Assembly (NCBI GenBank): GCA_000004985.1
Contig: GG738912.1
Reading direction: 5' to 3' (one strand)
Length of the DNA stretch: 64,000 bases
Origin: Naegleria gruberi
Lineage: Eukaryota
The translations under genes and the position numbers were made by a program. The notes under the pieces are model-generated. The model searched no databases and was not told where the DNA came from. It saw nothing but the letters and a program-made list of their open reading frames with translations. Below are positions 38,029-63,526 of the stretch, in pieces (position 1 is the stretch's first letter; each line of letters starts with the position of its first letter).

Positions 38029-39779
38029 TTATTGCGTTGGATCAAAGAATAAAACCAAATCCACTCGATTCTTGGGATTAGGGGAGGTGGTAAAAAGAGT
38101 ATCCTCAGAATCGTCAAATTTTCGAATCCATAATGCAAATTTTCGTAACGTTTCGCTGTCTACTTCTTGTATGTATATTTGCAATCGATCTTTGAACAGA
38201 CCTTTCTTTGTGCTCGTTAACTTTCGTTCTCTCTCACTTGGTAATAAGGTAAAATCGAATAGCTCATTATTAAATGTTATTGTTCTCGAATGGTTATCTT
38301 GGTTCTCTATGAATGACAGGTAAAATACGTTGGTATCCTTATATCTGGGACGCGAGGGATTATGTGGAAAGTGGATATCCACAAAACGTTGTTTAGCTAT
38401 TGGTGCAATATCCTTATGATGTACCAAGTTTTTCAATACTGTTTTTGTCAATTCCTTTCCATAATTCGTTCCACTATTTGGTTCATTCATCATGAAACAA
38501 GTTACAATAGCTCCGTGATATTGTTCATTTCTTTTAAACAATGCAGAGAGAATGTAAAATCTTGTTAAAATGTGAGAATTCTTCACAATGCTCAGAATAC
38601 AGTCATCGTCTCCAAAGTGTTTGGCCAATTCTATCAGCTTAAGCTTTGCTTCACAATCGGGTAGTGAACCATCAAGCAAATATTTTACATAGCTATTGAA
38701 TGTAGGCATTATAATAGGAGTTCTATCTTTGAAAGAGGAATTTCCAATATCAATAAAAACATTTGAATTTTTTTTGAGAATTGGGTGGTAATCTGTCAGT
38801 ATCTTTGAAAAGAACTTGGACCTTTTCAAATGCTTTACACATAAATTGTGATATTGATTTTCATAGCCAATCAAAAATTCTTTCTCTGGATCTAGAGTTT
38901 CATTCAGCTCTGAAATGATTTTGCCTTCAGGGAATTGTGCATGAGCAAAGTTCAACTCTGGTTCATCAAAAAAGAACTCTAAATCCACCGATCGATTTCT
39001 TGACTTGGAGAGCCAATAATTCGATGCTCCCAAATTCTGTTCCACTCCAACTCCTGTTAGATATTTAATTCCTACTTGTATCTGAGCTGCAACATCATCT
39101 CTCTTTGCTGCTTTCAAATACAACTCAAATGCTTTTTTGTAATCTTGTTTTACATGAATTCCAAATTCGTAAAATATTCCTAGGTTGTATATTGCATCCG
39201 AATCACCAATTCCAGCATACTCAGAATACCATTCAAACTCTTCACTAAAATCACGTTCCATTCCTTGAGAAAACATGAATAATCCAGAGGATTTAAAACG
39301 TCCAATTGCACTATTTGATTTTTCAAACCATTGCATAGCCATCATTACATTTTCCTTAACAACTTTTCCCTTCTCAAAGAAGGTTCCAATCTTGTATTTG
39401 GAAATTTCATCACCTTGTTCCGAGGCTTTCATATACCATTCCAATGCTTTTTCATAACTTTTCTGCACTCCCTTTCCTTCATCATACAACCATCCAATAT
39501 TAAACTGAGCATGAGCATCACCCTGTTCAGCAGCCTTCCAATACCACTCAAATGCTTTAACATAATCCTTTTCACTCCTCTTCCCTCCTCAAACAACAAT
39601 CCAACATTGTATTGAGCATCGGAATGTCCCTGCAAGGCTGCTTTCATATACCAATGCATTGCTAAGGCACAATCCTGCTTTACTCCATCAGAACCCTCAT
39701 CAAAACAAAGCCCCAAATTATATTGAGCATCAGCATCACCTTCCTCAGCTTGTTTAAGGTAAAGATCGAGCGCGGACAT
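38029..39779 (-). CDS. Sel1-repeat protein with a C-terminal BTB/POZ-like domain (paralogue A); apparent -1 frameshift at ~39569-39572
   Basis: MSALDLYLKQAEEGDADAQYNLGLCFDEG... shows Sel1 repeats (A.YNLG..Y..G.GV..D...A..WY.KAA.QG). At GGAGTGAAAAGGATTATG the frame changes. Inserting one A (GGAGTGAAAAAGGATTATG) restores ..GVKKDYVKAFEWYWKAAEQGDAHAQFNIG... C-terminal BTB-like KHLKRSKFFSKIL...KLKLIELAKHFGDDDCILSI. Confidence 0.6.
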
Positions 39780-42612: not shown

Positions 42613-44228
42613 GGGAGGAATTTCATAACAGAGGAGAACACGCAAAAGGCTTTGATTGTTTTTGTAAAGGTTATGAAATACACAAATCCAGCGAGTTGGA
42701 GCATGCAATTGGTTGTTGTTATACATTCGGATTGGGAGTTGAAAAGGATTATTCTAAAGCAAGGGAATGGTATTTGAAAGCTGCTGAAAAGGGATTTGCA
42801 AATTCACAAAATAATCTTGGTATGATATATGAAAATGGATTAACTGTTGAAAAGGACTTGGCTGAAGCACTGGAATGGTATTTGAAAGCTGGTGAAAATG
42901 GTGATCTAACTGCTCAAGTAAATCTTGCTCGGCTCTACCGTGACGGTGAGGGAGTTGAACAAGATTATTTGAAATCATTCGAATGGAATATGAAAGCTGC
43001 TGAAGCTGGGGATGCAGAAGCTCAAGTTCACATTGGCTATGCATATGATAAGGGTCTAGGAGTTGAACAAGATTTTTCGAAATCATTCGAATGGAATTTG
43101 AAAGGAGCAGAAAATGGGAGCCTAGATGGTCAATTTAATGTTGGACTTTTATTGGAACTGGGGGATGGAGTTGAAAAAAACATCAAGAAATCTGTGTTTT
43201 GGAAATCAAAGTGTTTTAATAGGTCAAAATGTTTTGACTTTGTAGAAGAACCTTACGAGCAGTTTGCTATGCAATATTTTACATCAAATACTGAGGATTG
43301 GAATCAATCCTCACCAAATAGTGACAAAGAACACGTAGTCGTACGATTTGAAGAGAAGGATTTCACACTTTCACAAAAGCATTTAAAGCATTCAAAATAT
43401 TTATCAACCATGATGAATTCAAATTGGAAAGATTTCAATGTCAAAGAGAAAAACCGAACCATACTTGATTTGAGAACCATTCAAAATGATATATTTCAAG
43501 AACAAACAGATATCATTCAAATATTTAATAATTATGTGAACTACTTAACAAATGAAATATTACCACCAGATTTTGACATGAAATTGAAATTAATTGAACT
43601 GTCAAGATATTTACAAGATGACGGATGTATATTGAATATTGTCAAAGAAGCAAGTATTCTGCAGAGATTTTACATTCTTTTGATATTAGAAATTATTGTT
43701 GAACCTATTCACATTGCAATTACTAGTTGTTTTGCAGCAGAAACTAAATTTAAAATCAATGATCTCTCAGAAAATGTTATTGAAAAATTACTCACTCAGT
43801 CTGGCCTATCTCAACATGGAAAGGACGAGATTTATAATGTATTTAAAGAAAAATTCAATGGATATCCTATAGCAATCAGTAAGTTGATCTATATTCAATT
43901 CTAATTTTTCCAACTTAATTTAGATATGAATATTCTTCATGTAACATTTTCAACGCTTAAAGAGAAGAAACTAATTCATTTCAATCAAGAACAAGTCGAA
44001 TTTTCTTTGGAATTGGGTAAAGATATCGATAACACTATTTTCAATATCAACAGCTCGCATGATGTTCAATTCTTTGGAAAGAATGCCAAGTTATATATCC
44101 AGATATCGAGTAGTGTTGATGGAGTATATGGATTTTGGTTGGATAACAGTTCTGAAAAAGGAAAAACTATTTTCATTTTACCTGAGATTAACTTTGAGGC
44201 ACTTAACTTGATTATAATGACTACATAA
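42613..44228 (+). CDS. Sel1-repeat protein with BTB/POZ-like domain (paralogue B); 5' exon not located; 45-nt intron 43879..43923
   Basis: The frame is open from the acceptor tttaattttag|GG at 42612 without an ATG (the ORF track's Met is a TTG). Sel1 repeats ...AIGCCYTFGLGVEKDYSKAREWYLKAAEKG... BTB-like FTLSQKHLKHSKYLSTMM...KLKLIELSRYLQDDGCILNI. Splice ...GYPIAI N|gtaagt...tttag|AT ATG joins in frame to the 43926..44228 ORF. Confidence 0.6.
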
Positions 44229-44792: not shown

Positions 44793-47700
44793 TTACTTTT
44801 TATTGAGCAATGAAAGCGAGGATAAAAGGGCAACACCAGTTTTTCTTTCCTCTCCGTATTTGAATTGTCTAGTTACAAGGTTGAGTCGTTGATGGAATTG
44901 TGACTTGAGGACAGCTCGTTGTTTGGCAGTGAGGAATCTTCTTCCAATTGCTTGAATTGTTGTGGTAGATGATAAAGTTTGTTCAGAAAATTGAGTGGTC
45001 TGTTTTCTTGTAAAGGAACCTCGCAGCAAACCTTGGATAGTTTGTAAATTCTCATTCTTGATGCTTAATTCAACTCTCGTTCTTGATCCCTCAATTGCTG
45101 ATCGAATAGTGAACACCTTATCCGTTATACTCTTGAGTGATTTGGCTTGTTGAATTTGTCTGACTCGGGCTTGCAATAGCGAAATACTACTCAGAGCAAA
45201 TTCAAATTCATTCCTCTTATTGTGACACATAAAGAGAAGAGCGACAGTGTTAGATAACTCCTTCATATCAGTGAGACTCCCTCTCGTTTCATGACCATAA
45301 TACAAGCTCTGAAGATAGTTGGCAGAGTCAGAGACAGTTCTGAAATCTTCATTGACAAATCGTCCTCTAATAATACTCTGCAATGCGTTAATATATTGAA
45401 TGTTGGTATTAAGATCTCTGATTGCAATCTGTTGTTGCATGAGTGATTGAATGGATTCTGTGAGTATTTGCATTTTTTTGAATTCTTGTCTTGTTTGATT
45501 GGCTCTGTAGAGGGCAATGATCATATTTCTAGAATCGAGTAGAGAATCTCTGTCCTCATTAAAAGATCTTTTCACTAGGTTTGACCTGAAAAAGGTCTGA
45601 ATGACAATTAGTCCGCTCATTTTCATATCTCTTTGTTTGAGAGTTGTGAAAGTTCTCACCCTTGATTGAAAGATTTTCATATCTTTCTTTTTCTGATATG
45701 TTTTGAGAATGGTAGTCTTTCTTTCCAATAAGGATTGTAAAACAGTGGCCAGAGTGATAGACTTGCTAAAAGATCTTCTTGCAAGTTGCGATTTGAAGAG
45801 AGCTTGAATGATAGCAATATTTTCTCTGGTTTTTTCAATTCTTCTTTCTTCAGACATTCTATGGACAATAGATTGAATTGTTTTGATGGATTCGGTTGTG
45901 GTGGACGATTGTCTCCTGGTAGAAATTCCATGTAAGCGAGTTGTGACAATTTGAACTTTGGTCATAGAATTTGCATATTGTTTTCTAACTAGACTGGAAC
46001 TCATGAAGGTTGAAATTAAATCCATTTGAGAGGATATTCTTTCGAAAGTCTTCAATGCTAGTTGTTTTCTGCACAAGGACTGAATGTGAGTGAGAGAATT
46101 GATAACTTCTTCTCTACTGGTTCTCGCAGAATATCCTCTTGATGCAGCTTGGAGAGTACCAACACGTTGTAATTGATTTTCATGATTTTTCCTATCTGTA
46201 TTTCCTCTGGCAGCATTTTGAATTATAGTAATTGAATAGTATCTCCTTTCGTTTTGGTATTCTTGTTGAATTGAACGGCTTCTACAGACAGCTTGTAAAT
46301 TAAGAATATGCTTTTCGATACGTGATCTTGTGGAGAGTTGAATGAACCCCTTAGCAAATGATGTGAAAATCTGCAATCTCTCCTGTTCAAGGGTGGTTGC
46401 ATTTCTTTGACTTATGCCATTCCATAAAGATTGAAGTAAAATGACTTGATTGATAGAAGTAGCTTTTTCGTCTTTGGCTTGTTTTCTTCTTAATAGTGAT
46501 TGAAGAGCACTAACGTCTTGAATAGCTTCAGCATTTTCCCTACGTTTGTATTTACCTTGAAAAGCTGCTTGGATGGTGACTAAATCATGTTGAGCTCTTT
46601 CATAACCAGATCTCACAAGGACTCCTTTGGCAAGAGCATGTACATACTTGGTAAATGTTTGGAGTGCATGTATGTTTGATCTTTCCTTGTTTGCTCTCAC
46701 TAATGCTTGAATCATTTGAGTGGCATTCCTATCAATAGGAGAATAATTGTTCTTTTTAGATGATTTGTTTCTAATCAAAGCTTGCAAGACAATAATCTTG
46801 TTAAGGGTTTGATTTTTCAACATGTTGATATTTCTAGAATTAGCCAGTGCTTGTAGAGAAATTAAATCTGAAATGTGTTGCTTTCTGCTCTGTTCTTCAG
46901 CTTTTCTCCTTACCAATGCTTGCAATACTATGATACCAGAACAATCCATGTGAGTCGTGCTTCCTCTTAAAAAGGCTTGAATTATTGTTATATTTTCTAG
47001 TTGCTTTGATTCTATGTTTTGCATTGCAGAGGATCTACATCTAGCTTGTATTGCTAATACTGCATTCTTGGATATTTCAAACTCTGCTCTTGTAAATCTA
47101 TTTCTGATTAGTGACTGGATAATTTCAATATTGTTTAAGGAGTTTTTTACCAATAGTCTGGTCTTATTTCCTCTAAGGAAGGCACAAACCATTGAACTTG
47201 AACTAGTTTGTTTATCCAATTTCTTTTGTACTATTTTTGATCTTATTAATGATTCCAAAGTTTCCAATCTTTTCAAATCCAATTTCATCTTGGCAGCTTC
47301 AGATGATTTCCTAATAGTACTTTGAAGATTGGTAACAAATGCCATGCTGGTTTGAGCTAGTCTTCTTTCCATGCCTGATTGTATTAATGCATGAATAAGA
47401 TGAACACTCTCAATAGGGGATGCATGTTCAGTCCTTTCCTTGTGAGAAATTATTAAATTTTGTATCATGGAGACTGCTTCAAGTTGGTTAAGTTTGCTGG
47501 CAACTGTTGAGCTTGATCTAAAAGCAGATTGAATGGTAATAATTTGATTCTGCATGCGATTTCTACTAGTTCTTTCTGTATTACCTTGTAGCAAGGCATG
47601 CAATAGATTCACTCCACCTCTAATTTTTTGTTCATTAAACTTCCTGATAGTGGCTTGAGCAACAACCAACTTTTGAATATAAACCCTGCCATGGGAATTG

Positions 47701-50700
47701 TTCCTAACAATATGTCCTCTAATAAGAGCTTGCAAACTTGAAATTCGCTGCTTTTCACTCTCCAAACTAGCAGACACAAGGTTGGATCTTGCTGCTGATT
47801 GTATAATTTGAATTTGTTCCATCAATTTAAGCTTGACTTCTCTTTCTATGCATCCTTGGTTTAGTGTTTGAACAATTGTGGCAACATCTCTAAAAGCAGA
47901 CATTTGGAGCTTTTCAACCAGAGATTTTCCAAGTGATTGAAAGGTCAAAATAGCATCTTTTTGTCTACCATCGTTGACCCTTGTAAAGTGGCCAACTACA
48001 GCGCTTTGTATTATCTTGGTATTTCTGATTGCCTTCTCGGTTTCCCTACATTTCAAGAATCTCCTGACCAAAGATTGCATTATTTCCACCAAGTCCCTTG
48101 TTAAGTAAAAGGTTTGCCTTAATGATCTACCTTTAAAAAAAGATGCAAGGGTATTACTATCCTCAAAACGGTTCCTTACCAGAGCTGACTGTAACAAGGT
48201 TGAAATAATATCTATTTTGGACTTTTCTTGTTCCGCTAATCGCCTTGTGTTGAATGACCTAGCACTCAATGAAAGGATAGAAATCATGTCCAAATGAGCT
48301 TGTTTGCTTGTCATTACATGTTTTCCTCTGATTGCACTCTGAATTACAAGCACTTTGGTTAATTGATACATGTCCACATGGTTATTTCCACGTCCTCTGA
48401 AGAAGGCCTGAATATTAGTGATACTATCATGTACATGTGAAAAATTCTTCCTTTCCAAATATCCTCTAATGAGAGCTTGCTGAGTGTTGATGTGGTTTTT
48501 GGTAGGTTGTAGATTTTTTCTCTCATCTCTTCCTCTCATGCTAGATTGCAAATTGATGATGTAAATTGTGTACTGTTCATGTTGTGCACGTAGCGTGTGA
48601 GAAAGAATGAGAGATTGTAAAATCTTGATGTTGTTGATGCATGTTTCCGATTGTTTTCTATTGATGTATGCTCTTCCGAATGTTTCAACTAAAAGAGAAG
48701 AGTCAATCAAGTCCTGATGTTCCTTCAACTTTGCATGTCCTCTTACCACAGCTTGAACATATTTGGTGTTGTTTGAAAGGGTTGAAAGGTGAGCCTTTTC
48801 CAATTTGCTTCTTATACGAGCTTGTAAAGTTTTGATCTTGTTCAATTCATTGATGAAATCTCCTCTACAGAAAGAGGATTGTAAAAAACCTTGTACGATT
48901 TGAACATTTTCTACATTTTCAATAAATTTGTTCTCTGTCAATTGTCTTCGGGAAAGTGATTGAATAACAGTAACATATTCATTAACACTGCTTTCTATTT
49001 TCCTGGCTATAAAACCACGTACCGAAGCTTGAAGAGTCAAAATGTTATAGTGGTTATGTCTAAAGGATTTGATTTCATTCTTTTTACGAATGTTGGATTG
49101 CACCAACAATACGTTATTCATTTGTTTCTCTTGTTCTTGAGTTATTAAAAAGGTCTTGACTCTTGCCTGAAGAGTTATTATTAAACTCTTATTTTGTGAA
49201 AATTCCTTTCGTGCAAAGTTTCCAAATAAAACAGATTGGGTATTCACTAAATCTTCTCTTCTGGCAGATAAATCTTTTCTTGTGAGATAAGATCTAGCTG
49301 CAGTTTGAATCATTCTCAAGTTCGCAACACTGTTTCTAAACAAGCATCTTGTTTCGAATGTCCTTAAAAGTGCCTGAGTAAAACAGATTCTAATTAGTTC
49401 ATTCTTATGCTCCAAACGTTGCACATGACCTTTCATGAGAGAACCTAATATATTTGAGCTTTCAGTTGTGTGTTTAACAAGTTGATTTTCAATTTTTCCT
49501 TGATATAATGTTTGAATTTGATGGGCCAAATTAATTTTAACTTGAAAACCACGTCTAGTCTGTACGCCTCGCAGCCATGATTGTATAGTCGAAACCTTTC
49601 GTTGAGTTTGGTGCATCAATGAACGGTTTAGCTTCCCTGAGAAAGACGCTTGAATACTATTGATGGCATTAATTCGATGCTTCAAATCAATTCTTCCCAA
49701 ATGTCCCTTGATTGAATGCTGTAAAGTTTGAACAGCATTTTGCAAGGAATGCTTATTTACTTGCTCCAATGTGCCTCTTGCTCTTGACTGAATTAGATGG
49801 GCAGCATTTCTCGTATCATAAAATTTCATCTGTCCACTGTGGCCACGAGCCAAAGAGGTCAAGAGAAGTGCCTTATCTAAATCCGTGCAAGCTTGCGAAG
49901 CGGTATTAATGCTCCTTAATAGAGTTTGAAGAAGCAACACACCCTTTTTAAGATCTGTATATTCCTTCCTTCTTGCGACAGCGTCAATTAAAGTTTGTAG
50001 GACAAGCACGTCCGATTTATACCTTTGGACTACCTTTTGTTGTTCTAGTCCACGACCATTGGCTTGAAGAAGGGAAGCAACTTGCACATATTGAGATAGG
50101 TCCTTTCTTACAAATAAAGATCTTGAAACAGGTTGAACAAGGATAGCAACGTGTTTCTTCTTTTTAAAGTCTAGGAATACCTTTCTTGCACAACAAACAG
50201 ATTGAATTAAAGTGGATGCATTCAACGCTGAATCTTTGAATTTCTGAATCAATTTGGCTCTTATAAGCGATTGTACAAGTGTAATTCTATTACATTGTTC
50301 TTTAAAGGTTGTACGAGCATTGAAACCCCTGATTGCACTATCCATAATCAAACATTTTGAATTCAAAGATTTTCTGTTTCGGTATTCGATAAATCTTCTG
50401 GAAAGCGTTTGAATGGTAGTAATGTCATTGATTAGATGGTTCAAATTGGATTGGCATTGCTTGACCCTTATCAAGGTCTGTATTGCTTGGATATTAGAAA
50501 TTTCCTTAGAGGAGTCTTGTTTCAAAAGTATTCTCCTGATCAATGCCTGAAGTAATGGAATGGATTCACTAGTGGTTTGATATTTCTTTCTCTGATTGCA
50601 TCCTAGTATCGTAGATTGAATTACTTTGATATTTTCCATAGAAAGAGTAAAGCATTTAGCTTGTTGTCCAGCTCTGAATAATCCTTGGATTACTACAGCA

Positions 50701-53700
50701 GAGTCCAAACTTGTTGTGAGATTAGTTCTTTCCAATCTTCCAACTAATGCTGCATTGAATAGATGAGCCAAATTTCGGAGCAATTGCAGGTTTTTCCTAC
50801 TAACATTAGAAGACATCATAGCTTGCAAAACCTCAATTGAGGAGGAGAAGATTACCATTTCCTGCCTGTCAGAAGAACCCTTGATGGATGCTTGCAGAGT
50901 GAGTAAAAAATTCTCCAATTGGCTCACTTCCTTCATTGCTGCTCTTCCTCTAACAAGACTTTGAAGCAATATTATCCTACTTGTCAAAACCGAACGAGAA
51001 TGTTTAACTGATAATGCCTTGGAAAGAGCTGTAAATATTTCGGATCTATCCAATTCGAATCTATAAATTTGTCCTTCTCCTTTGCCTCTGCAAAAGCTTT
51101 GCATTATCTGTATGGCTTCCTTCTTCGATTGTAAATCTTTTTGCTTATGATGTCTCCTTACAAGTGACTGTAAAGTAATGATTTGTTGAATATTGTGTCT
51201 TGTGAAGGAGACTAATAATCTAGACCTTGAAATAGACTGAAGAATTACAATTTGTTGAATATTCTTTGCAAAACAACCTCTTTCAAGTTTTGATCTGGAG
51301 AGCGATTGAATACATTCCAAGTTCAACTTGTTAGAATTGAAATCTTCTTGTTGGTATCTTCTTCTGTGCCAAGTTTGAACGGTGAGAGCAGTAACCCTCA
51401 TCAGATTGAATGTCTCTCTGATTCTATTAGACTCGCACAACACTGCAATGTTTGAAAGGGCTTGAGTCCTGAACACCTCAAAGGCAAAGAGTGAACAAAC
51501 TCTAATTAACTCTGCATCCTCGACAAGTCTTTGGTCTTCCATGATTTCGTCCTCCTCTCCAAAATAAGGTCTCATTCTCGGTATTTCACAATTGTCAGGA
51601 TAGCAATCATAATTAAATCTAACTACAGCCTCCATGAACTCGATAATGAAAAGTGGAATATACTTGAAATCAAGTGGGAATAGCCGTATTTCGTTCAAGT
51701 ATGGGAAGAGTTGTACTTGAACCCATATCAACAAAAGGGGAACCGTAGATTTTGCATCTTCTTCTACCACCTCATCTACCTTTTTGCTTGTTGTCGAATA
51801 GTAATGTTCATTCATTTTGGTGAGAACGGATTTAAGTTTTTCTCCATCATAGTGAACCAGTAGAGCTTCGTGGAAAATGTGTGAGAGAGGGTGTTCATCT
51901 CCAATTTTCATCAATGACTTGTAATTTTCCACATACTTTTCTGCATCTTCGATTGATATCTTTTCAGAAATCAAGTCAACTATACCTCTAACATTATCAC
52001 CTCTAGGATCTAATTTTTCAATTTCCTTTCTCAAAATTGCTGGGGTTAGTTTGGATTTAATCTTATCCAAAGAAGTAGGTTCCTCTGGGAATTGTATTCC
52101 TTCTTCATCTGAAATTTTTTCAATTTCCGATTGGTCTGATGATGACTCTCTGCCATGTCTCTTCAGTGGAGGTTCTTCATAATTTGCCAGAGATTCTAAG
52201 GATGTAACCTTAGCCATATCAGTGGATGTTGGTGTTGAAGGAGTTTTTGCCTTTTTGGCAAACTTGTTGAAAAAACTTTTGATTTTTTCACTTTTTGTCT
52301 TTTTTCTTTCTAATAGTTGACTACTTGTCAATGCTATTTGCGTATTACTATATGTTGATTCATCATCATCAAGTGTATCCAAACTCTGTCCTACAGAACG
52401 GCTGAAATTATTGTTTCTTGCTGGTGCTGATGCAACAGAAAATGCAGTGAAATTACTGTGAGAAGAAATTGTATCAAAAAGATCATCCCTTTCCACAGAT
52501 CCCTTCCCATCCATTAGACTGATTTTAAATGATTTGGATATATTCATGGCTTGAGATCTTCTGACTGGACTCTTTGGAGTTGTTGAGCCAGAAGCTTTTT
52601 CAGCCAGCTCTGAAAAATTGACACCCTTTCTTCTTTTCTGAGACAAATCTTTGTGTACTCCATTAAATTCTGTCAACTTGACTAGAACTTCACTCACCTC
52701 ACTATTAACATGAGAATGGGTTGTGGTTGTACTTATTTGAGAGGCAAAGGTGTGAGTATATTGTGAATATTGAGATTCTTCTGGTGATACAGGTGTTGCT
52801 GTTTCCTTCTTTTTTCTTTTTAATTTTGTAATTATGGAAGGCAACTTTCCTAGTAGAGATTTTGATCTTCCTTTCGTGGTTTCCTTTGTTATTGGAACTA
52901 CTATAGAGGGAACAACAACTAGAGGTCCTTGAAAATTATTGTTTGCTGATGCTGATGTATTACTGGTACCAGTATGATTAGGTGTATTTCCACTAGAAAT
53001 ATCCGATGTATTCATATCATCAAAATCATTGTCAGATTCATTCTCCTCTCCTTGCATATCATTCTCTGTAATATCATCAAATGATGCTCCATACACTCTA
53101 TTGCCATGTTGAACATTTTGAGTTGATGGTGTAATGCTGGATGCACTTGGTGGTGGTGAGGGTCTTCCTCTTGGTGAAAATTCATTCCTTGGAGAACGAC
53201 CATTTGGCATGATTGACCTAGGTGATAATAAGTTACCTCCTCTCGGAGTGTATAAATTGTGAGCTAGTGAATGTGATCGATGTGTACGACCACCACTCTT
53301 GGATGAAGATGTTGTAGATGCAAGTGAACTCTTATTTGAATTATTTCTAAATCTACCAACAGGTCTATTCTGTACAGGTGGTTTACTAATTACTATGGCT
53401 ACAGGTGTGGAGGAATTAATTGATGGTGAATTATCGCTATTATTGTTGGTTTGTTTACTCGATGTTACTAAATTATTCGAATAGATTATTACTCCTCCTC
53501 CATTAGTTGAAGAAGTACTTGTTCCATTCTGATTATTAGGTATTTGTCTATAGAAGGAAGAAGATGAATGTAGGGATGTATTGCTATTATTGTTACTATT
53601 ATTGAAAAGGGATGCTGGATTGGAATTTTGAATGGCAGAAAGTTTTAACTGGGGAATGACAGCAGGTACTCTTTTCGAGGAAGTAGAAGAGAAGGTAGAT

Positions 53701-54275
53701 GCATTAGGTGGAGTGGATGGAGAAATTGGTGAAAAGGTCGTGTTATTACTTCCCTGAAGATGATGAAGATTTGAGGCAAAATTGGGACTTGATGACTGAG
53801 AACGATGTCTTGGTGATAATGTCGATGATGAAGACAATGAATTGGCAAGTGATAAATTAGAAGAACCCACATTCCGTAAAACTGAAGAAGCCGAAAGTAT
53901 TCCTCCTCCTACTCCTCCTGGTGAATTCGAGTTATCCAAACATTGACTATTACCTATCGATAATTGACCTCCATTATTATTATTATTACTAATAATATTA
54001 TTATTAATCGAAGCAGCAATCAATCCTCCAATATTATTATTATTATTATCCATAATACTATTATTTAAATTAATTGTTCCTTGTTGTTGCACACTTGTCG
54101 GCGATGATACAACAACAGATGCAGATGCACCTCCTCCTCCTCCCTGAGCAGACGAAGAAATACTTCCATTGAAAAGAACATTTTGTGCAGCTGCTGATGA
54201 TGATAAATTGGCGGCGGGAAGTAAATCTTGATGGAGGCGGGAAGTGATTTTTTCGGGATTTATCGAATTTCCCAT
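44793..54275 (-). CDS. Giant IQ-motif array protein (3,160 aa): low-complexity N-terminus, ~300-aa globular region, then ~2,100 aa of tandem IQ-like calmodulin-binding motifs to the C-terminus (ASPM-like array)
   Basis: Single uninterrupted ORF. From about residue 1,000 the pattern [ILV]Q..[ILVF]R[GRSKA]....[RK] recurs every 23-27 residues, e.g. IQSLVRG, LQALIRR, IQSAIRGK, IQALVRANK. I estimate on the order of 80-90 copies by eye. Confidence 0.8.
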   Translation of the reverse strand: MGNSINPEKITSRLHQDLLPAANLSSSAAAQNVLFNGSISSSAQGGGGGASASVVVSSPTSVQQQGTINLNNSIMDNNNNNIGGLIAASINNNIISNNNNNGGQLSIGNSQCLDNSNSPGGVGGGILSASSVLRNVGSSNLSLANSLSSSSTLSPRHRSQSSSPNFASNLHHLQGSNNTTFSPISPSTPPNASTFSSTSSKRVPAVIPQLKLSAIQNSNPASLFNNSNNNSNTSLHSSSSFYRQIPNNQNGTSTSSTNGGGVIIYSNNLVTSSKQTNNNSDNSPSINSSTPVAIVISKPPVQNRPVGRFRNNSNKSSLASTTSSSKSGGRTHRSHSLAHNLYTPRGGNLLSPRSIMPNGRSPRNEFSPRGRPSPPPSASSITPSTQNVQHGNRVYGASFDDITENDMQGEENESDNDFDDMNTSDISSGNTPNHTGTSNTSASANNNFQGPLVVVPSIVVPITKETTKGRSKSLLGKLPSIITKLKRKKKETATPVSPEESQYSQYTHTFASQISTTTTHSHVNSEVSEVLVKLTEFNGVHKDLSQKRRKGVNFSELAEKASGSTTPKSPVRRSQAMNISKSFKISLMDGKGSVERDDLFDTISSHSNFTAFSVASAPARNNNFSRSVGQSLDTLDDDESTYSNTQIALTSSQLLERKKTKSEKIKSFFNKFAKKAKTPSTPTSTDMAKVTSLESLANYEEPPLKRHGRESSSDQSEIEKISDEEGIQFPEEPTSLDKIKSKLTPAILRKEIEKLDPRGDNVRGIVDLISEKISIEDAEKYVENYKSLMKIGDEHPLSHIFHEALLVHYDGEKLKSVLTKMNEHYYSTTSKKVDEVVEEDAKSTVPLLLIWVQVQLFPYLNEIRLFPLDFKYIPLFIIEFMEAVVRFNYDCYPDNCEIPRMRPYFGEEDEIMEDQRLVEDAELIRVCSLFAFEVFRTQALSNIAVLCESNRIRETFNLMRVTALTVQTWHRRRYQQEDFNSNKLNLECIQSLSRSKLERGCFAKNIQQIVILQSISRSRLLVSFTRHNIQQIITLQSLVRRHHKQKDLQSKKEAIQIMQSFCRGKGEGQIYRFELDRSEIFTALSKALSVKHSRSVLTSRIILLQSLVRGRAAMKEVSQLENFLLTLQASIKGSSDRQEMVIFSSSIEVLQAMMSSNVSRKNLQLLRNLAHLFNAALVGRLERTNLTTSLDSAVVIQGLFRAGQQAKCFTLSMENIKVIQSTILGCNQRKKYQTTSESIPLLQALIRRILLKQDSSKEISNIQAIQTLIRVKQCQSNLNHLINDITTIQTLSRRFIEYRNRKSLNSKCLIMDSAIRGFNARTTFKEQCNRITLVQSLIRAKLIQKFKDSALNASTLIQSVCCARKVFLDFKKKKHVAILVQPVSRSLFVRKDLSQYVQVASLLQANGRGLEQQKVVQRYKSDVLVLQTLIDAVARRKEYTDLKKGVLLLQTLLRSINTASQACTDLDKALLLTSLARGHSGQMKFYDTRNAAHLIQSRARGTLEQVNKHSLQNAVQTLQHSIKGHLGRIDLKHRINAINSIQASFSGKLNRSLMHQTQRKVSTIQSWLRGVQTRRGFQVKINLAHQIQTLYQGKIENQLVKHTTESSNILGSLMKGHVQRLEHKNELIRICFTQALLRTFETRCLFRNSVANLRMIQTAARSYLTRKDLSARREDLVNTQSVLFGNFARKEFSQNKSLIITLQARVKTFLITQEQEKQMNNVLLVQSNIRKKNEIKSFRHNHYNILTLQASVRGFIARKIESSVNEYVTVIQSLSRRQLTENKFIENVENVQIVQGFLQSSFCRGDFINELNKIKTLQARIRSKLEKAHLSTLSNNTKYVQAVVRGHAKLKEHQDLIDSSLLVETFGRAYINRKQSETCINNIKILQSLILSHTLRAQHEQYTIYIINLQSSMRGRDERKNLQPTKNHINTQQALIRGYLERKNFSHVHDSITNIQAFFRGRGNNHVDMYQLTKVLVIQSAIRGKHVMTSKQAHLDMISILSLSARSFNTRRLAEQEKSKIDIISTLLQSALVRNRFEDSNTLASFFKGRSLRQTFYLTRDLVEIMQSLVRRFLKCRETEKAIRNTKIIQSAVVGHFTRVNDGRQKDAILTFQSLGKSLVEKLQMSAFRDVATIVQTLNQGCIEREVKLKLMEQIQIIQSAARSNLVSASLESEKQRISSLQALIRGHIVRNNSHGRVYIQKLVVAQATIRKFNEQKIRGGVNLLHALLQGNTERTSRNRMQNQIITIQSAFRSSSTVASKLNQLEAVSMIQNLIISHKERTEHASPIESVHLIHALIQSGMERRLAQTSMAFVTNLQSTIRKSSEAAKMKLDLKRLETLESLIRSKIVQKKLDKQTSSSSMVCAFLRGNKTRLLVKNSLNNIEIIQSLIRNRFTRAEFEISKNAVLAIQARCRSSAMQNIESKQLENITIIQAFLRGSTTHMDCSGIIVLQALVRRKAEEQSRKQHISDLISLQALANSRNINMLKNQTLNKIIVLQALIRNKSSKKNNYSPIDRNATQMIQALVRANKERSNIHALQTFTKYVHALAKGVLVRSGYERAQHDLVTIQAAFQGKYKRRENAEAIQDVSALQSLLRRKQAKDEKATSINQVILLQSLWNGISQRNATTLEQERLQIFTSFAKGFIQLSTRSRIEKHILNLQAVCRSRSIQQEYQNERRYYSITIIQNAARGNTDRKNHENQLQRVGTLQAASRGYSARTSREEVINSLTHIQSLCRKQLALKTFERISSQMDLISTFMSSSLVRKQYANSMTKVQIVTTRLHGISTRRQSSTTTESIKTIQSIVHRMSEERRIEKTRENIAIIQALFKSQLARRSFSKSITLATVLQSLLERKTTILKTYQKKKDMKIFQSRVRTFTTLKQRDMKMSGLIVIQTFFRSNLVKRSFNEDRDSLLDSRNMIIALYRANQTRQEFKKMQILTESIQSLMQQQIAIRDLNTNIQYINALQSIIRGRFVNEDFRTVSDSANYLQSLYYGHETRGSLTDMKELSNTVALLFMCHNKRNEFEFALSSISLLQARVRQIQQAKSLKSITDKVFTIRSAIEGSRTRVELSIKNENLQTIQGLLRGSFTRKQTTQFSEQTLSSTTTIQAIGRRFLTAKQRAVLKSQFHQRLNLVTRQFKYGEERKTGVALLSSLSLLNKK

Positions 54276-54703: not shown

Positions 54704-55821
54704 TATTATTTTGATTCGAAATTTGGAATTAAACCTGATAATATTACACTCACAACAATTCTTCTGTCCTGTGCTGAACATCATGATATTGGAAAGGGTC
54801 ATACCCGACTACATCAAGGAGAATAGACTTGTTGGTGATGTCTCATAAACTTTTACTCTAAATGTACTGATTTAGAGACTGCTCTCTCAATTTTCGAATC
54901 AATTATTAAGAAAAAGAAGGAAGTGAACTCATACACGTACAATGCTATTATTTTTGCATGTGCAGAGCATGGGCAGTCAAGCCATTGCTTTAAATTCTTC
55001 ACTCAAATGATACAGAGCAATATTGAGTTATTGCCAACACCAGAAACATTCACAGCTTTGCTTACTGCTTGTAGCCATTCTCATATGTACGATAAAGCCT
55101 GGGATATCTACAATTCTATGGGAACAAGTTTCGGTATTGAACCAAGTAATATTCATACATCTTGTTTGATTGATGCACTAGCGAGATCTGGGCAATTTGT
55201 GAAAGCTCTTGAAATAATTGGAAAACGCAAAGATAAAGTATATTGGATGACTCTGATGGGAGCATGTAGAAAATTCAACCATGTTGAGATAGCAGAGAAG
55301 GCTTTTGATGCATTGATTGACATTGATTCAACAGATGGTTCATATTATGTTTTATTATCCCATATTTATATATTCAACAATCAAATGGAAAAGGCAGCAA
55401 CAATAAGATTTAATGAAATATAATAATGGCTCAAAAGTTGTTGGAGTCACTTCTGTGATACATTGGCGACGAGATTCACACCCAGTGATGACAGATAAGC
55501 ATCTCATTCAAGTCGAGCTTGATAAATTGATTAATGAACTAATGGAGGCAGGTTATTCTCCAGATACTAGATGGGTTACCAGAATAGAAACTTTGAGCAC
55601 TGAAGAAAAACGAAACCTTTTATGTAGGCATTCTGAAAAGATTGCCATGGCGTATGCTTTTGTCAGAATGCCAAAAACTAAACAAATAGTCTTATTCCAA
55701 AACCTGACTGCCATGAAGCAACAAAGTACATTTCCAAAGTGAGAAAATGATTGTTGTGAGAGATGCAAGTCGATACTACCATATTAAGGACGGAAAATGT
55801 AGCTGTGGTGATAATTGGTAA
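54704..55821 (+). pseudogene. PPR (pentatricopeptide repeat) E/DYW-type gene relic, fragmented by at least 4 frame breaks and lacking an N-terminus
   Basis: PPR motifs GIKPDNITLTTILLSCAEHHDIGKG, LINFYSKCTDLETALSIFESI, NSYTYNAIIFACAEHGQ, TPETFTALLTACSHS, GIEPSNIHTSCLIDALARSGQ. E/DYW-like region across three frames: MKYNNGSKVVGVTSVIHWRRDSHP...GYSPDT...EEKRNLLCRHSEKIAMAYAF (HSE motif) ...DCHEATKYISKV...MIVVRDASRYYHIKDGKCSCGDNW-stop at 55821. Confidence 0.6.
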
Positions 55822-60553: not shown

Positions 60554-60625
60554 GGGGACCAGTGGGAATCGAACCCACGGCCTCTCGCACCCAAAGCGAG
60601 AATCATACCACTAGACCATGGTCCC
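60554..60625 (-). tRNA. tRNA-Pro (anticodon UGG)
   Basis: Reverse complement GGGACCATGGTCTAGTGGTATGATTCTCGCTTTGGGTGCGAGAGGCCGTGGGTTCGATTCCCACTGGTCCCC. Cloverleaf with 7-bp acceptor, anticodon loop TTTGGGT (UGG, G37) and T-arm GTGGG-TTCGATT-CCCAC. A TTTT tract follows the 3' end. Confidence 0.85.
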
Positions 60626-62083: not shown

Positions 62084-63526
62084 ATGTTCGCAGAGGAAAC
62101 TCATGGTCATTACCATGATAAAAAGAAGACGAAACTCGCCAAAGATAATGTTGACGAAATGATTGAAATTGAAATGCCAAATAATGCAAATAACAGCAGT
62201 AGTGGAAACGGAGATGTGGCTGGACAACAAACAGTAATGCATAGAATTGGTTCTTCTCCGACCTTTAGTCCAGTTTCTGTTCCTAGGTTAAATGTTTCGT
62301 ATGTGGATCAAGCTACTCGAGAGTGGCAATCGGATTTTAAACAATTTCCTCTAGTGGATACAGCCAATATTTCAAAGAAGGAAGTTGTAGAGTTTTACGA
62401 AAAGCAAAATGAAATGGTTGATGAATATTCGAAACTTTTCAAATCCAAGTTGGAGCATTCGGACGAAACTACAACTGAAGGCGATTTGACAGGACGTTCT
62501 GTTGCCAATGAAGCTGCTTTCGAACAGGAAGAACATATTACACCTGCCATGAAAAGATTAGAATATTGGTGCATTCACTTGTCATTTTGGACAAACGTTT
62601 GTTTATTTGTGTTGAAATGTTCTGCGAGTATCTTATCAGTTTCTCTCTCAGTTATTACATCCACAATTGATTCTGCTTTGGATTTATTATCTGGTTTGAT
62701 TATTTATATTACTTCATTGTATAGAAGAAGAAAGAATGATATTTATCAATATCCAATTGGTAGAAATAGATTGGAACCAATTGGTTTTGTAATTTTTGCT
62801 ACTTGTATGTGTACTGCAAGTTTGCAAATTATCAAGGAAGGTTTATCTCAAATCGTGACAGGTCTCATTACAGGTGATGTTTATATTAATGCAAATAGCT
62901 CAGATGATTCAAATGCTGAAGTTGACTGGATGTTTGGTATTATGATTCCTAAATATGTTGCCACTATTTTCTATTGGTATGGTATTGGTGTCCTGTTGGC
63001 AACCATTCTCATCAAATTGGCTCTCCATTTGATTTGTAGAAGAGTTAAACATTCTCCTTCAGTTATTGCCTATGCATTCGATCACAGAAATGATGTCTTG
63101 TCTAATAGTTTGTTGCTTGTTTCCCTATTCTTGAGCAAATATTTGTGGTGGCTCGATTCTATTGGTGCTGTCATTTTGAGTATTTACATTATTAAGAGTT
63201 GGATTGACGAATCTTTGGAACATGTGACTAAACTTGTTGGTTTGACTGCTGATAAGGAATACATTCAAAAGTTGACATTCATGGCATTGAATCATAGTCC
63301 TCTAATTACTCAAGTTGATTCAGTAATGGCCTATTATTCTGGTGCCAATATGATTGTTGAGATTGATGTTGTCTTGCCAAAGGAAACTCCACTCTTGGAA
63401 TCTCACGACGTTGGTGAAACATTGCAAAAGAAGATTGAATCCTTGCCAGATGTTGAAAGATGTTATGTCCATTTGGATTATGAATTTTCACATACAAAGG
63501 ATTATGAACATGTCGTTAAGGATTAA
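62084..63526 (+). CDS. Cation diffusion facilitator (CDF) transporter, Mn-type (MTP8/11-like)
   Basis: Six TM helices. TM2 STIDSALDLLSG and TM5 FDHRNDVLSNS both carry DxxxD, the Mn-CDF signature; Zn-CDFs carry HxxxD. C-terminal cytoplasmic domain with HLDYEF. Confidence 0.8.
   Translation: MFAEETHGHYHDKKKTKLAKDNVDEMIEIEMPNNANNSSSGNGDVAGQQTVMHRIGSSPTFSPVSVPRLNVSYVDQATREWQSDFKQFPLVDTANISKKEVVEFYEKQNEMVDEYSKLFKSKLEHSDETTTEGDLTGRSVANEAAFEQEEHITPAMKRLEYWCIHLSFWTNVCLFVLKCSASILSVSLSVITSTIDSALDLLSGLIIYITSLYRRRKNDIYQYPIGRNRLEPIGFVIFATCMCTASLQIIKEGLSQIVTGLITGDVYINANSSDDSNAEVDWMFGIMIPKYVATIFYWYGIGVLLATILIKLALHLICRRVKHSPSVIAYAFDHRNDVLSNSLLLVSLFLSKYLWWLDSIGAVILSIYIIKSWIDESLEHVTKLVGLTADKEYIQKLTFMALNHSPLITQVDSVMAYYSGANMIVEIDVVLPKETPLLESHDVGETLQKKIESLPDVERCYVHLDYEFSHTKDYEHVVKD

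What the first reader, a model, noticed from the sequence alone, without database searches (positions are those of the whole stretch)
44793..54275. 9.5-kb single-exon gene encoding a 3,160-aa protein that is mostly a tandem array of roughly 80-90 IQ calmodulin-binding motifs
Seen directly:
- From about residue 1,000 to the last residue the protein is a near-perfect IQ periodicity of 23-27 residues ([ILV]Q..[ILV]R[GRK]....[RK]).
- It has no recognisable myosin motor and no clear CH domain.
- The C-terminal Armadillo-like region of ASPM is absent, because the array runs to the stop codon.
- The N-terminal 500 aa are S/N/G-rich low complexity.
- A ~300-aa globular region (VPLLLIWVQVQLFPY...RVCSLFAFEVF) precedes the array.

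Interpretation:
- The only well-known comparably long IQ arrays are in ASPM/Asp spindle-pole proteins, which have up to 81 IQ motifs.
- This could be a highly divergent ASPM orthologue of an amoebozoan, or a novel calmodulin/light-chain scaffold or rigid lever rod.
- The IQ count is my estimate by eye.
Basis: partly seen in the sequence, partly recalled or inferred. Interest (0 to 1): 0.75.

Follow-up and report, generated by a model that had tools for sequence, protein, structure and literature searches.

The report
Giant 94-repeat IQ-motif protein of Naegleria
A single 9.5-kb exon of the amoeboflagellate Naegleria gruberi encodes a 357-kDa protein two-thirds of which is an unbroken run of about 94 calmodulin-binding-type IQ repeats, the longest such array I could find, attached to a domain seen only in Naegleria, so it is probably a very long light-chain-coated rod and does not meet the definition of the spindle protein ASPM.

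Summary
Window 44793..54275 (-) is one uninterrupted 3,160-aa ORF. Residues 962-3129 tile into 94 consecutive IQ-type units, 86 of 95 tiles exactly 23 aa (period-23 column information z = 39 over shuffles). A profile of these units retrieves only IQ-bearing chains from the PDB. The units are degenerate: 74 keep the Q, 55 keep Q plus the basic residue, 10 are complete IQxxxRGxxxR.

The organism is Naegleria gruberi (Heterolobosea), not an amoebozoan. The gene appears absent from the public N. gruberi protein set. The only relative of the pre-array domain among 1.84 billion representative proteins is N. fowleri hypothetical protein FDP41_010985. It is also single-exon, with about 77 units, the same N-terminus and a near-identical C-terminal tail.

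ASPM membership is not met: no ASH domain, no CH domains (Pfam negative, hhalign at noise level), no C-terminal ASPM region, no higher-order IQ repeat. Sfi1/centrin-type repeats are excluded because the conserved tryptophan core is absent.

Best reading: a Naegleria-lineage, roughly 325-nm alpha-helical IQ rod coated with calmodulin-family light chains, with functional ends. Cellular role, and whether it substitutes for ASPM, remain untested.

The parts
44793..54275 (-). Complete single-exon CDS, 3,160 codons plus stop (356.7 kDa, pI 10.2)
   Evidence: ORF listing and translation. Both termini are conserved with the N. fowleri orthologue, which is also a single 8,484-nt exon. An in-frame stop lies 15 nt upstream. 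Mass and pI.
52062..54275 (-). Residues 1-738: S/N/G/P-rich, basic (pI 9.55), probably disordered N-terminal region with conserved short islands. These include MGNxINPEKI at the start and islands around residues 289-300, 395-415, 479-490, 573-586, 666-675 and 681-689.
   Evidence: Composition. Alignment with N. fowleri and list of islands. 22 of the protein's 25 [ST]P sites lie here, and 11 are conserved in the alignment. No Pfam domain at E <= 10.
53208..53351 (-). Residues 309-356: the most conserved N-terminal island, NSNKSSLxSTSSSKSGGRTxRSHS...TPRGGNLLSPR. It is Ser/Arg-rich and includes conserved [ST]PR sites, so it is a candidate phospho-regulated or microtubule/partner-binding segment (inference).
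   Evidence: Conserved islands and [ST]P[KR] positions 343 and 351, with a third at 367 just downstream. Alignment A4.
51393..52061 (-). Residues 739-961: conserved acidic (pI 4.98), predicted all-helical block of about 220 aa directly abutting the first IQ unit. At sequence level it is an orphan domain known only from Naegleria.
   Evidence: 58-63% identity to N. fowleri. An exhaustive phmmer scan of 1.84 billion representatives finds only P0009. No PDB sequence hit, no Pfam hit and no metagenome relative. AF2 pLDDT is 41.9 and 45.2, helices only.
44889..51392 (-). Residues 962-3129: array of 94 consecutive IQ-type units with a period of 23 aa (2,168 aa, 248.6 kDa, pI 10.7, 5 prolines). It would be about 325 nm long as one alpha-helix.
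   Evidence: Tiling, shuffle control z = 39, Pfam IQ, ASPM-trained HMM, PDB hits all IQ-bearing, composition. No DNA-level tandem repeat. Units share a mean 17.7% identity.
48987..49124 (-). Residues 1718-1763: two IQ units unusually conserved with N. fowleri (52% against an array mean of 25.6 +/- 6.8%). Candidate site for a specific partner or dedicated light chain (inference).
   Evidence: Sliding-window identity. Also visible in the BLASTP alignment.
44796..44888 (-). Residues 3130-3160: conserved non-IQ C-terminal tail, RLNLVTRQFKYGEERKTGVALLSSLSLLNKK. Candidate docking motif for the far end of the rod (inference).
   Evidence: 79% identical to the N. fowleri tail, and both end in ALLSSLSLLNKK.

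Best explanation
This is a real protein-coding gene of Naegleria gruberi, conserved in N. fowleri, that encodes an IQ-rod scaffold.

Residues 962-3129 most likely form one continuous, basic, proline-poor alpha-helix of about 325 nm. Its 94 IQ-type sites, spaced every 23 residues, would be occupied by calmodulin or calmodulin-like EF-hand light chains. That is how IQ arrays stiffen myosin lever arms and how the ASPM IQ region binds calmodulin. A fully occupied rod would carry about 1.6 MDa of light chains.

Specificity would lie at the two ends. One end has a Ser/Pro-rich, probably phospho-regulated disordered region plus a Naegleria-specific helical domain. The other end has a 31-residue conserved tail. 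On this view the protein acts as a long tether, spacer or ruler, or as a calmodulin platform, between two cellular structures, possibly in a Ca2+-sensitive way.

Shown here: the ORF, the repeat, its IQ identity, the conservation pattern, and the absence of other known domains. Inferred: helicity, light-chain binding, the rod function and the roles of the ends.
For: - Gene reality: a 9.5-kb ORF in a 35% GC genome. The N. fowleri orthologue scores E = 4.9e-163, shares the start MGNxINPEKI and the end ALLSSLSLLNKK, and is also single-exon.
- Repeat reality: z = 39 at period 23, and 86 of 95 tiles are exactly 23 aa. The N. gruberi-trained PSSM tiles the N. fowleri protein into about 77 units, 65 of 79 tiles being 23 aa.
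- IQ identity: Pfam IQ at 76.6 bits; positive, in-register hits from an ASPM-trained HMM with shuffles at 0; the self-profile retrieves only IQ chains solved with calmodulin or light chains, including Myo2p IQ2-3 at 8.7e-5, RSP23, neuromodulin and myosins 1c, 5a, 7a and 10.
- Rod-like physics: 5 prolines in 2,168 aa against 45 in the 738-aa N-terminal region, and pI 10.7.
- Selection on motif and spacing rather than sequence: the array is 25% identical between species, against 58% for the domain and 79% for the tail. Unit-by-unit orthology is undetectable outside the motif columns (z = -0.4). There is no recent DNA repeat.
- No motor, CH, ASH or any other Pfam domain.
Against: - The units are degenerate. 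Only 10 of 94 are complete IQxxxRGxxxR, and only 13-22 are individually recognised by a foreign IQ HMM. Total IQ score is 63 bits against 595 for a real ASPM. Many sites may therefore bind weakly, bind other EF-hand proteins, or bind nothing.
- No binding, expression or localisation data exist. The gene has no model in the public N. gruberi protein set and no literature.
- The fold of the globular domain could not be determined (pLDDT 42-45), so a cryptic known domain is not excluded.
Confidence: 0.6

Rival explanations
1. It is the extremely divergent Naegleria orthologue of ASPM/Asp. The ASH and CH domains have diverged beyond recognition and the C-terminal region has been lost. It acts with calmodulin at microtubule minus ends or poles of the acentrosomal intranuclear spindle.
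For: - After the N. fowleri orthologue, the best hits are bona fide ASPMs: Diadema at E = 2.7e-33 over 76% of the query, Procambarus, and a Planoprotostelium CH+IQ protein.
- The order of parts is ASPM-like: a basic, [ST]P-rich disordered N-terminus, then a helical block directly abutting the array, then a very long IQ array.
- The single best hhalign segment against a 30-sequence ASPM CH profile places 'PLLLIWVQVQLFPYLNEIRLFPLDF' on CH2 helix A, 'LLLxWCQxVCAxYGVxVxNFTxSF'.
Against: - There is no ASH, CH or CAMSAP_CH hit in either species even at E <= 10, whereas real ASPMs from animals and an amoebozoan score 49-63 bits.
- The hhalign probability is 0.7-3.2%. An unrelated control block scores equally (19.65 against 19.09), and global alignment collapses.
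- There is too little sequence between the putative helices C and G for a fourth core helix (read from the sequence).
- There is no C-terminal ASPM region, only a 31-aa tail.
- There is no three-unit higher-order IQ repeat (z <= 0.6).
- The ASPM matches run through IQ repeats only.
Confidence: 0.2
2. It is mainly a calmodulin reservoir or buffer. A high-capacity array of apo-calmodulin sites, like neuromodulin or neurogranin multiplied about 90-fold, stores calmodulin and releases it on Ca2+ rise. Rod geometry would be incidental.
For: - The self-profile matches the neuromodulin IQ.
- Individual unit sequences are unconstrained between species, so only generic site properties are kept.
- The number of sites is very large.
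Against: - The spacing is strictly kept at 23 aa in two species (86 of 95 and 65 of 79 tiles) and prolines are nearly absent. This argues that helix continuity and geometry are under selection, which a mere sink would not need.
- The strongly conserved ends (58% and 79% identity) imply specific attachment.
Confidence: 0.1
3. It is an Sfi1-like centrin-binding filament protein, like Sfi1p or the Paramecium PtCenBP1 scaffold of the Ca2+-contractile infraciliary lattice.
For: - It shares the general design: a long, proline-poor helix of short repeats that bind EF-hand proteins, with spacing of about 23 aa (Sfi1 spacing is 23-35 aa and proline content is low, PMC2173958).
- PtCenBP1 is described as an extended molecule with many centrin sites (PMC6189993).
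- Naegleria has centrin (Levy et al. 1996, cited in PMC2173958).
Against: - The Sfi1 consensus AX7LLX3[F/L]X2W[K/R], with its conserved tryptophan, is absent. There are 0 [FLIVM]xxW[KR] cores in either species and only 3 W in 2,168 array residues.
- The unit matches IQ instead.
Confidence: 0.03
4. It is an artefact or mis-delimited gene: a headless fragment of a myosin or CH-domain gene whose other exons lie upstream, or a non-functional compositional ORF.
For: No N. gruberi protein model for it exists in the public collections.
Against: - The start and the stop are both conserved with the independently annotated N. fowleri gene.
- An in-frame stop lies 15 nt upstream of the ATG.
- The 2.5 kb upstream holds only short minus-strand ORFs (81 aa or less) and a plus-strand PPR gene.
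- A chance 9.5-kb ORF in AT-rich DNA is essentially impossible.
Confidence: 0.02

Closest known systems
[quoted passage not shown]
   Same: - It has a very long tandem IQ array: 81 IQ repeats in human ASPM, implicated in calmodulin binding (PMC10436222). A sea-urchin ASPM shows 75 positive units with my HMM.
- A large part of the array is encoded in one exon.
- The region N-terminal to the array is basic and disordered.
- ASPMs are the best non-Naegleria sequence hits.
   Different: - No ASH domain, no tandem CH domains and no conserved C-terminal region.
- No higher-order IQ repeat, whereas many ASPM IQs form one (PMC10436222).
- A uniform 23-aa period.
- Units far more degenerate (63 bits against 595 bits).
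- An orphan Naegleria-only domain sits where the CH domains would be.
Myosin lever arms (class V, VII and others) with bound calmodulin or light chains
   Same: - The same motif: the self-profile hits Myo2p IQ2-3, myosin-5A, -7A, -1c and -10, and scallop regulatory domains.
- A similar spacing of about 23 residues.
- The proposed mechanism, a single helix stiffened by EF-hand light chains, is taken from this system (established knowledge).
   Different: - No motor domain, coiled coil or cargo domain.
- 94 sites, against typically 1-6 in myosins (my own knowledge).
Sfi1 / PtCenBP1 centrin-binding filament scaffolds
   Same: The design principle is shared: a long proline-poor helix of short repeats, each binding one EF-hand protein, forming an extended and possibly Ca2+-responsive filament.
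   Different: - A different motif: Sfi1 needs the [F/L]xxW[K/R] core, which is absent here.
- The likely ligand is calmodulin-type rather than centrin.
Naegleria fowleri hypothetical protein FDP41_010985 (P0009)
   Same: It is the true orthologue. It shares the N-terminus, the orphan domain (59% identity), an IQ array of about 77 units with a 23-aa period, the tail, and a single exon.
   Different: It has 17 fewer units. Array sequence is only about 25% identical, and there is no shared synteny. It is uncharacterised, and I found no literature on it.

Membership tests
IQ calmodulin-binding motif (Pfam PF00612) | Sequence match to the IQ profile above the curated threshold | tested here: met
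   76.6 bits against a cut-off of 20.3. N. fowleri scores 71.3 bits.
IQ calmodulin-binding motif (Pfam PF00612) | Core [FILV]Qxxx[RK]Gxxx[RK] present in the repeat consensus and in individual units | tested here: met
   The consensus is [IL]Q[SA]L[IVL]RGxxxR[KR]. Per unit, 74 of 94 have Q, 55 have Q plus R/K, and 10 are complete. The self-profile retrieves only IQ chains from the PDB.
IQ calmodulin-binding motif (Pfam PF00612) | Actual binding of calmodulin or an EF-hand light chain | not testable with these tools
   Needs pull-down, overlay or co-expression.
ASPM/Asp | N-terminal ASH (ASPM-SPD2-Hydin) domain, PF15780 | tested here: not met
   No hit at E <= 10 in N. gruberi residues 1-962 or N. 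fowleri residues 1-1006. Real ASPMs score 49.6-62.6 bits.
ASPM/Asp | Tandem calponin-homology domains (PF00307 / PF11971) immediately before the IQ array | tested here: not met
   Pfam is negative. hhalign gives 0.7%, 1.7% and 3.2% probability, equal to a control block. The structural test was inconclusive: pLDDT 42-45 and Foldseek best E = 0.88.
ASPM/Asp | Long tandem IQ array | tested here: met
   94 units.
ASPM/Asp | Conserved C-terminal (Armadillo-like) region after the array | tested here: not met
   Only 31 residues follow the array. No Pfam hit.
ASPM/Asp | Higher-order (multi-unit) organisation of the IQ repeats | tested here: not met
   Unit-distance identity at k = 3, 6 and 9 equals that of permuted order (z between -0.3 and 0.6).
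ASPM/Asp | Spindle-pole / microtubule minus-end localisation and function | not testable with these tools
   Needs imaging in Naegleria.
Sfi1-type centrin-binding repeat proteins | Repeat consensus AX7LLX3[F/L]X2W[K/R] with conserved tryptophan (PMC2173958) | tested here: not met
   0 matches to [FLIVM]xxW[KR] in either species, and 3 W in 2,168 residues. Consensus taken.
Sfi1-type centrin-binding repeat proteins | Low-proline repeat region with spacing of 23-35 aa | tested here: met
   5 prolines in 2,168 aa and a period of 23. This feature is shared with IQ rods, so it does not discriminate.
Myosin | Motor (head) domain N-terminal to the IQ region | tested here: not met
   Pfam finds only IQ. 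There is no upstream exon candidate.

The most novel reading that the evidence does not exclude
Naegleria has evolved, or retained from an early eukaryote, a motor-less and CH-less molecular ruler. It would be a roughly 325-nm single helix carrying up to 94 calmodulin-family light chains (about 1.9 MDa when loaded), the longest IQ array I found. Its lineage-specific head domain and conserved tail would bridge two structures at a fixed or Ca2+-tunable distance. One possibility is that it takes over the ASPM/calmodulin role in the centrosome-free intranuclear spindle. Another is that it spaces elements of the cytoskeleton assembled de novo during the amoeba-to-flagellate switch.
Probability: 0.2. 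Interest if true: 0.75.

Novelty: new variant of a known kind. Interest (0 to 1): 0.55.

Why it matters
IQ arrays are understood mainly as short myosin lever arms and as the poorly understood 81-repeat region of ASPM. This is a natural protein that is almost nothing but an IQ array. It has 94 units at a strictly constant 23-residue pitch and is conserved in architecture, but not in sequence, across two deeply diverged Naegleria species.

- It is a clean test case for what very long IQ arrays are for: stiff rod, ruler, or calmodulin store. It also shows which features selection keeps, namely pitch, motif and helix continuity.
- If it turns out to be the functional counterpart of ASPM in an organism with acentrosomal closed mitosis, it would show that the IQ-rod/calmodulin module, rather than the CH and ASH domains, is the conserved core.
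- The gene appears to be missing from the public N. gruberi protein set, so proteomic and transcriptomic analyses that rely on those models would not include it.
- Its orthologue exists in the pathogen N. fowleri as an unstudied hypothetical protein.

Tried and rejected
1. Three-unit super-repeat. Lag 69 looked as strong as lag 23, but unit-distance identity with a permutation control shows no higher-order repeat.
2. Young tandem duplication. TRF finds no DNA repeat at the 69-nt unit length, and the maximum pairwise unit identity is 43%.
3. Cryptic CH domain. By eye 'LLLIWVQ...YDCYP...DAELIRVCSLFAFEVF' resembled ASPM CH2. hhalign against 4- and 30-sequence ASPM CH profiles gave 0.7-3.2% probability, no better than a control block.
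4. Structure route. Two AF2 runs with the only available two-sequence alignment gave pLDDT 41.9 and 45.2. Foldseek against the PDB gave only generic helix bundles, with E >= 0.88. Inconclusive.
5. More orthologues for a deeper alignment. The exhaustive representative search found only N. fowleri, and the metagenome scan found none.
6. Sfi1/centrin repeat: rejected on the missing tryptophan core.
7. N-myristoylation anchor. MG is conserved, but PROSITE PS00008 fails because of Pro at position 7, so I did not use it.
8. One-to-one orthology of units and whole-unit indels between species. Not detectable: z = -0.4, and gap lengths are not multiples of 23 at this divergence.
9. Checking whether Naegleria has a separate canonical ASPM. 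The ASPM CH-profile search returned only short proteins (615 aa or less) and not even its own seeds, so it is uninformative on this point.
10. Public gene model at the locus. Look-ups of neighbours in the contig index found nothing on record for N. gruberi.
11. The first homology search with the globular region returned nothing, although the N. fowleri protein is in that database. I treat this as a tool miss, not as evidence.
12. PDB sequence searches with the globular region and with the last 735 aa of the protein (most of it array) found no significant match.
Full report
**1. The observation**

The window carries one uninterrupted ORF on the minus strand, 44793..54275. It is 3,160 codons long with an ATG start. 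An in-frame TGA lies 15 nt upstream of the ATG (sequence).

Composition by 250-aa blocks confirms an S/N/G-rich N-terminal third and an L/Q/R/S/I-rich remainder. In the last two-thirds, spacings between [ILV]Q cores are overwhelmingly 23 or multiples of 23. Residue autocorrelation peaks at lags 23, 46, 69, 92 and 115.

I tiled the region by dynamic programming with an iteratively refined PSSM, allowing unit lengths of 19-31 aa.
- 94 consecutive units run from residue 962 to 3129.
- Of 95 tiles, 86 are exactly 23 aa.

Self-trained tiling can overfit, so I ran a training-free control. Cutting residues 962-2019 into fixed 23-mers gives 24.15 bits of column information, against 7.04 +/- 0.44 for 500 shuffles (z = 39). 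Periods 15-34 show no other peak.

The unit consensus is x[IV]xx[IL]Q[SA]L[IVL]RGxLxR[KR]xF, which is the canonical IQ motif.

**2. Is it really IQ?**

Four independent lines agree.
- Pfam finds IQ (PF00612) and nothing else: 76.6 bits against a cut-off of 20.3.
- An HMM trained only on 96 IQ units from bona fide ASPMs scores 22 units above zero, 13 of them at iE < 0.01. All are in register with my tiling, none falls outside the array, and 30 shuffled arrays give essentially no hits.
- A profile of the protein's own 91 full-length units, searched against all PDB sequences, returns 21 chains at E <= 1. Every one is an IQ-bearing chain. They include Myo2p IQ2-IQ3 (8.7e-5), radial-spoke protein 23, the neuromodulin IQ, myosins 1c, 5a, 7a and 10, scallop regulatory domains, DRC9/10, Sp17, SPATA17, IQSEC1 and CFAP91.
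- The N. gruberi PSSM, never trained on N. fowleri, tiles the orthologue into about 77 units. Of 79 tiles, 65 are exactly 23 aa.

The caveat is degeneracy.
- 74 units keep the Q, 55 keep Q plus the basic residue, and only 10 are complete IQxxxRGxxxR.
- With the ASPM-trained HMM the whole protein scores 63 bits, against 595 for a sea-urchin ASPM.

It is not met, because the periodicity is positional rather than compositional. The honest description is still "94 IQ-type units, of which a minority are canonical".

**3. Organism and gene status**

Four neighbouring ORFs are exact matches to Naegleria gruberi proteins (NAEGRDRAFT_56361, _59614, _74217, _74229) on a 238,573-bp contig. The source is therefore a heterolobosean (Discoba), not an amoebozoan.

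The 3,160-aa sequence is not in the 15-billion-protein collection. A homology search with residues 711-3160 returned no N. gruberi model of it. The gene therefore appears to be unannotated in the public N. gruberi protein set.

**4. Relatives**

The top hit is N. fowleri hypothetical protein FDP41_010985 (2,827 aa, E = 4.9e-163, Pfam IQ only). It is also a single 8,484-nt exon and lies in a different gene neighbourhood.

The two proteins share:
- the start, MGN(S/N)INPEKI;
- several short islands in the low-complexity region;
- the pre-array block;
- the last residues...ALLSSLSLLNKK.

Identity between the two species is 58% in the block (residues 739-961), 25% in the array and 79% in the 31-residue tail.

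Outside the motif columns, a collinear unit-by-unit alignment scores no better than permuted unit order (z = -0.4). One two-unit island, residues 1718-1763, stands out at 52% identity.

At the DNA level there is no tandem repeat. Units within the protein average 17.7% identity, with a maximum of 43%. The array is therefore old, and selection has preserved the pitch, the motif and helix-compatible composition rather than individual sequences.

An exhaustive phmmer scan of 1.84 billion representative proteins with residues 711-984 found exactly one relative, the N. fowleri protein (5.2e-84, 59% identity). A metagenome scan found none. The domain has no Pfam match at E <= 10 and no PDB sequence match.

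**5. Testing the ASPM reading**

Real ASPMs appear among the hits only through their IQ arrays (E = 2.7e-33 and weaker). They carry ASH, CH and CAMSAP_CH domains that Pfam detects easily, even in an amoebozoan.

The Naegleria proteins have none of these.

By eye, the block 'PLLLIWVQVQ...FNYDCYP...DAELIRVCSLFAFEVF' resembled ASPM CH2, so I tested it.
- hhalign against a 4-sequence ASPM tandem-CH profile gave 0.7% probability.
- Against a 30-sequence profile it gave 1.7%. The best local segment did fall on CH2 helix A.
- In sub-block tests the candidate block scored 19.09, an unrelated upstream block scored 19.65, and global alignment collapsed. The match is at noise level.

Two AlphaFold2 runs, limited to a two-sequence alignment, gave pLDDT 41.9 and 45.2. 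Foldseek against the PDB returned only generic helix bundles (best E = 0.88). The structural test is therefore inconclusive.

There is no C-terminal ASPM region, since only 31 residues follow the array. There is also no higher-order IQ repeat, whereas many of ASPM's 81 IQs are organised into one (PMC10436222).

ASPM membership therefore fails on three defining features that I tested. I could not determine whether Naegleria has a separate canonical ASPM, because one search was uninformative on that point.

**6. Testing the Sfi1/centrin reading**

Sfi1 repeats have the consensus AX7LLX3[F/L]X2W[K/R], a conserved tryptophan, spacing of 23-35 aa and low proline content (PMC2173958). Giant relatives such as PtCenBP1 form Ca2+-contractile filaments (PMC6189993).

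The Naegleria array has no such core and only 3 tryptophans in 2,168 residues. This reading is rejected as membership and kept as a design analogy.

**7. Mechanism (inferred)**

The array is 2,168 residues long with 5 prolines, against 45 in the 738-residue N-terminal region. Its pI is 10.7. At 0.15 nm per residue, a continuous helix would be about 325 nm long, or 3.45 nm per unit.

By analogy with myosin lever arms and ASPM-calmodulin, each unit would bind one acidic EF-hand light chain, stiffening the helix into a rod. Full occupancy would add about 1.6 MDa (my arithmetic, assuming light chains of about 17 kDa).

The conserved ends are the likely attachment or regulatory modules.
- The N-terminal region is [ST]P-rich, holding 22 of the 25 sites, 11 of them conserved. 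It includes the highly conserved Ser/Arg island 309-356.
- The orphan acidic helical domain lies at residues 739-961.
- The tail covers residues 3130-3160.

I therefore favour a tether, spacer or ruler, or a calmodulin platform, possibly Ca2+-sensitive (confidence 0.6). The rivals are:
- a highly derived ASPM orthologue (0.2);
- a calmodulin reservoir (0.1);
- an Sfi1-like protein (0.03);
- an artefact or mis-delimited gene (0.02).

**8. Novelty and score**

The motif and the principle are known. What is not described is the architecture: an orphan domain, then 94 IQ units at constant pitch, then a short tail, with no motor, CH or ASH domain. I found no literature on the gene or on its N. fowleri orthologue.

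Other uncharacterised IQ-only proteins exist in public data, but with about 35-40 units and unrelated flanks.

I rate it a new variant of a known kind, with interest 0.55. It is a striking and clean natural IQ rod that is probably missing from the reference protein set, but its function is unknown and the biochemical principle is familiar.

Noticed in passing
window 54923..55742 (+): A short plant-type PPR ORF with an E motif (166 aa; PPR 66.3 bits, E_motif 31.9 bits) is followed, in a different frame, by a 109-aa ORF. The second ORF starts like a DYW domain ('GYSPDT...CRHSEKIAMAYAF') but reads 'NLTAMKQQ' where I would expect the deaminase CxDCH zinc motif (placement from my own knowledge of DYW domains, not checked against a model here). 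It looks like a frameshifted, truncated PPR-DYW relic or an intron-containing gene. It lies divergently upstream of the IQ gene.
   Followed up: partly
window 44793..54275 (-): The 3,160-aa gene seems to have no model in the public N. gruberi protein set. It is not found by exact look-up or by homology search, although four neighbouring ORFs in the window are present as exact sequences. Analyses that rely on the reference gene models would therefore not include it.
   Followed up: partly
window 38029..39489 (-) and 42696..43904 (+): Two Sel1-repeat protein genes (89 and 144 bits) lie just downstream of the IQ gene. Also in the window are a teneurin-like EGF protein (9728..14182, -), a G-alpha-like ORF (33721..35172, -), cryptochrome DASH (20899..22560, +), a cation-efflux transporter (62084..63526, +) and tRNA-Pro(TGG) (60554..60625, -).
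   Followed up: no
window 48987..49124 (-), residues 1718-1763: Two adjacent IQ units are 52% identical to N. fowleri, against an array mean of 25.6 +/- 6.8%. This is the only clearly conserved island inside the array and may be a site for a dedicated partner.
   Followed up: partly
P0015 (ENA, 2,984 aa) and P0011 (Logan, 1,827 aa): These are other uncharacterised IQ-array proteins without CH or ASH domains, with about 32-41 IQ cores and unrelated flanks. P0015 contains about nine near-identical 27-aa IQ repeats ('RQAAITIQQLFRAKCQGKRDRQTYLNT'), which indicates a recently expanded array, unlike the ancient diverged Naegleria one.
   Followed up: partly
tool behaviour: the search for homologous proteins returned nothing for the globular region, although the N. 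fowleri orthologue (59% identical, sharing long exact words) is in the database and was found. The ASPM CH-profile search listed only proteins of 615 aa or less and not its own full-length seeds. Negative results from this tool should not be read as absence.
   Followed up: yes
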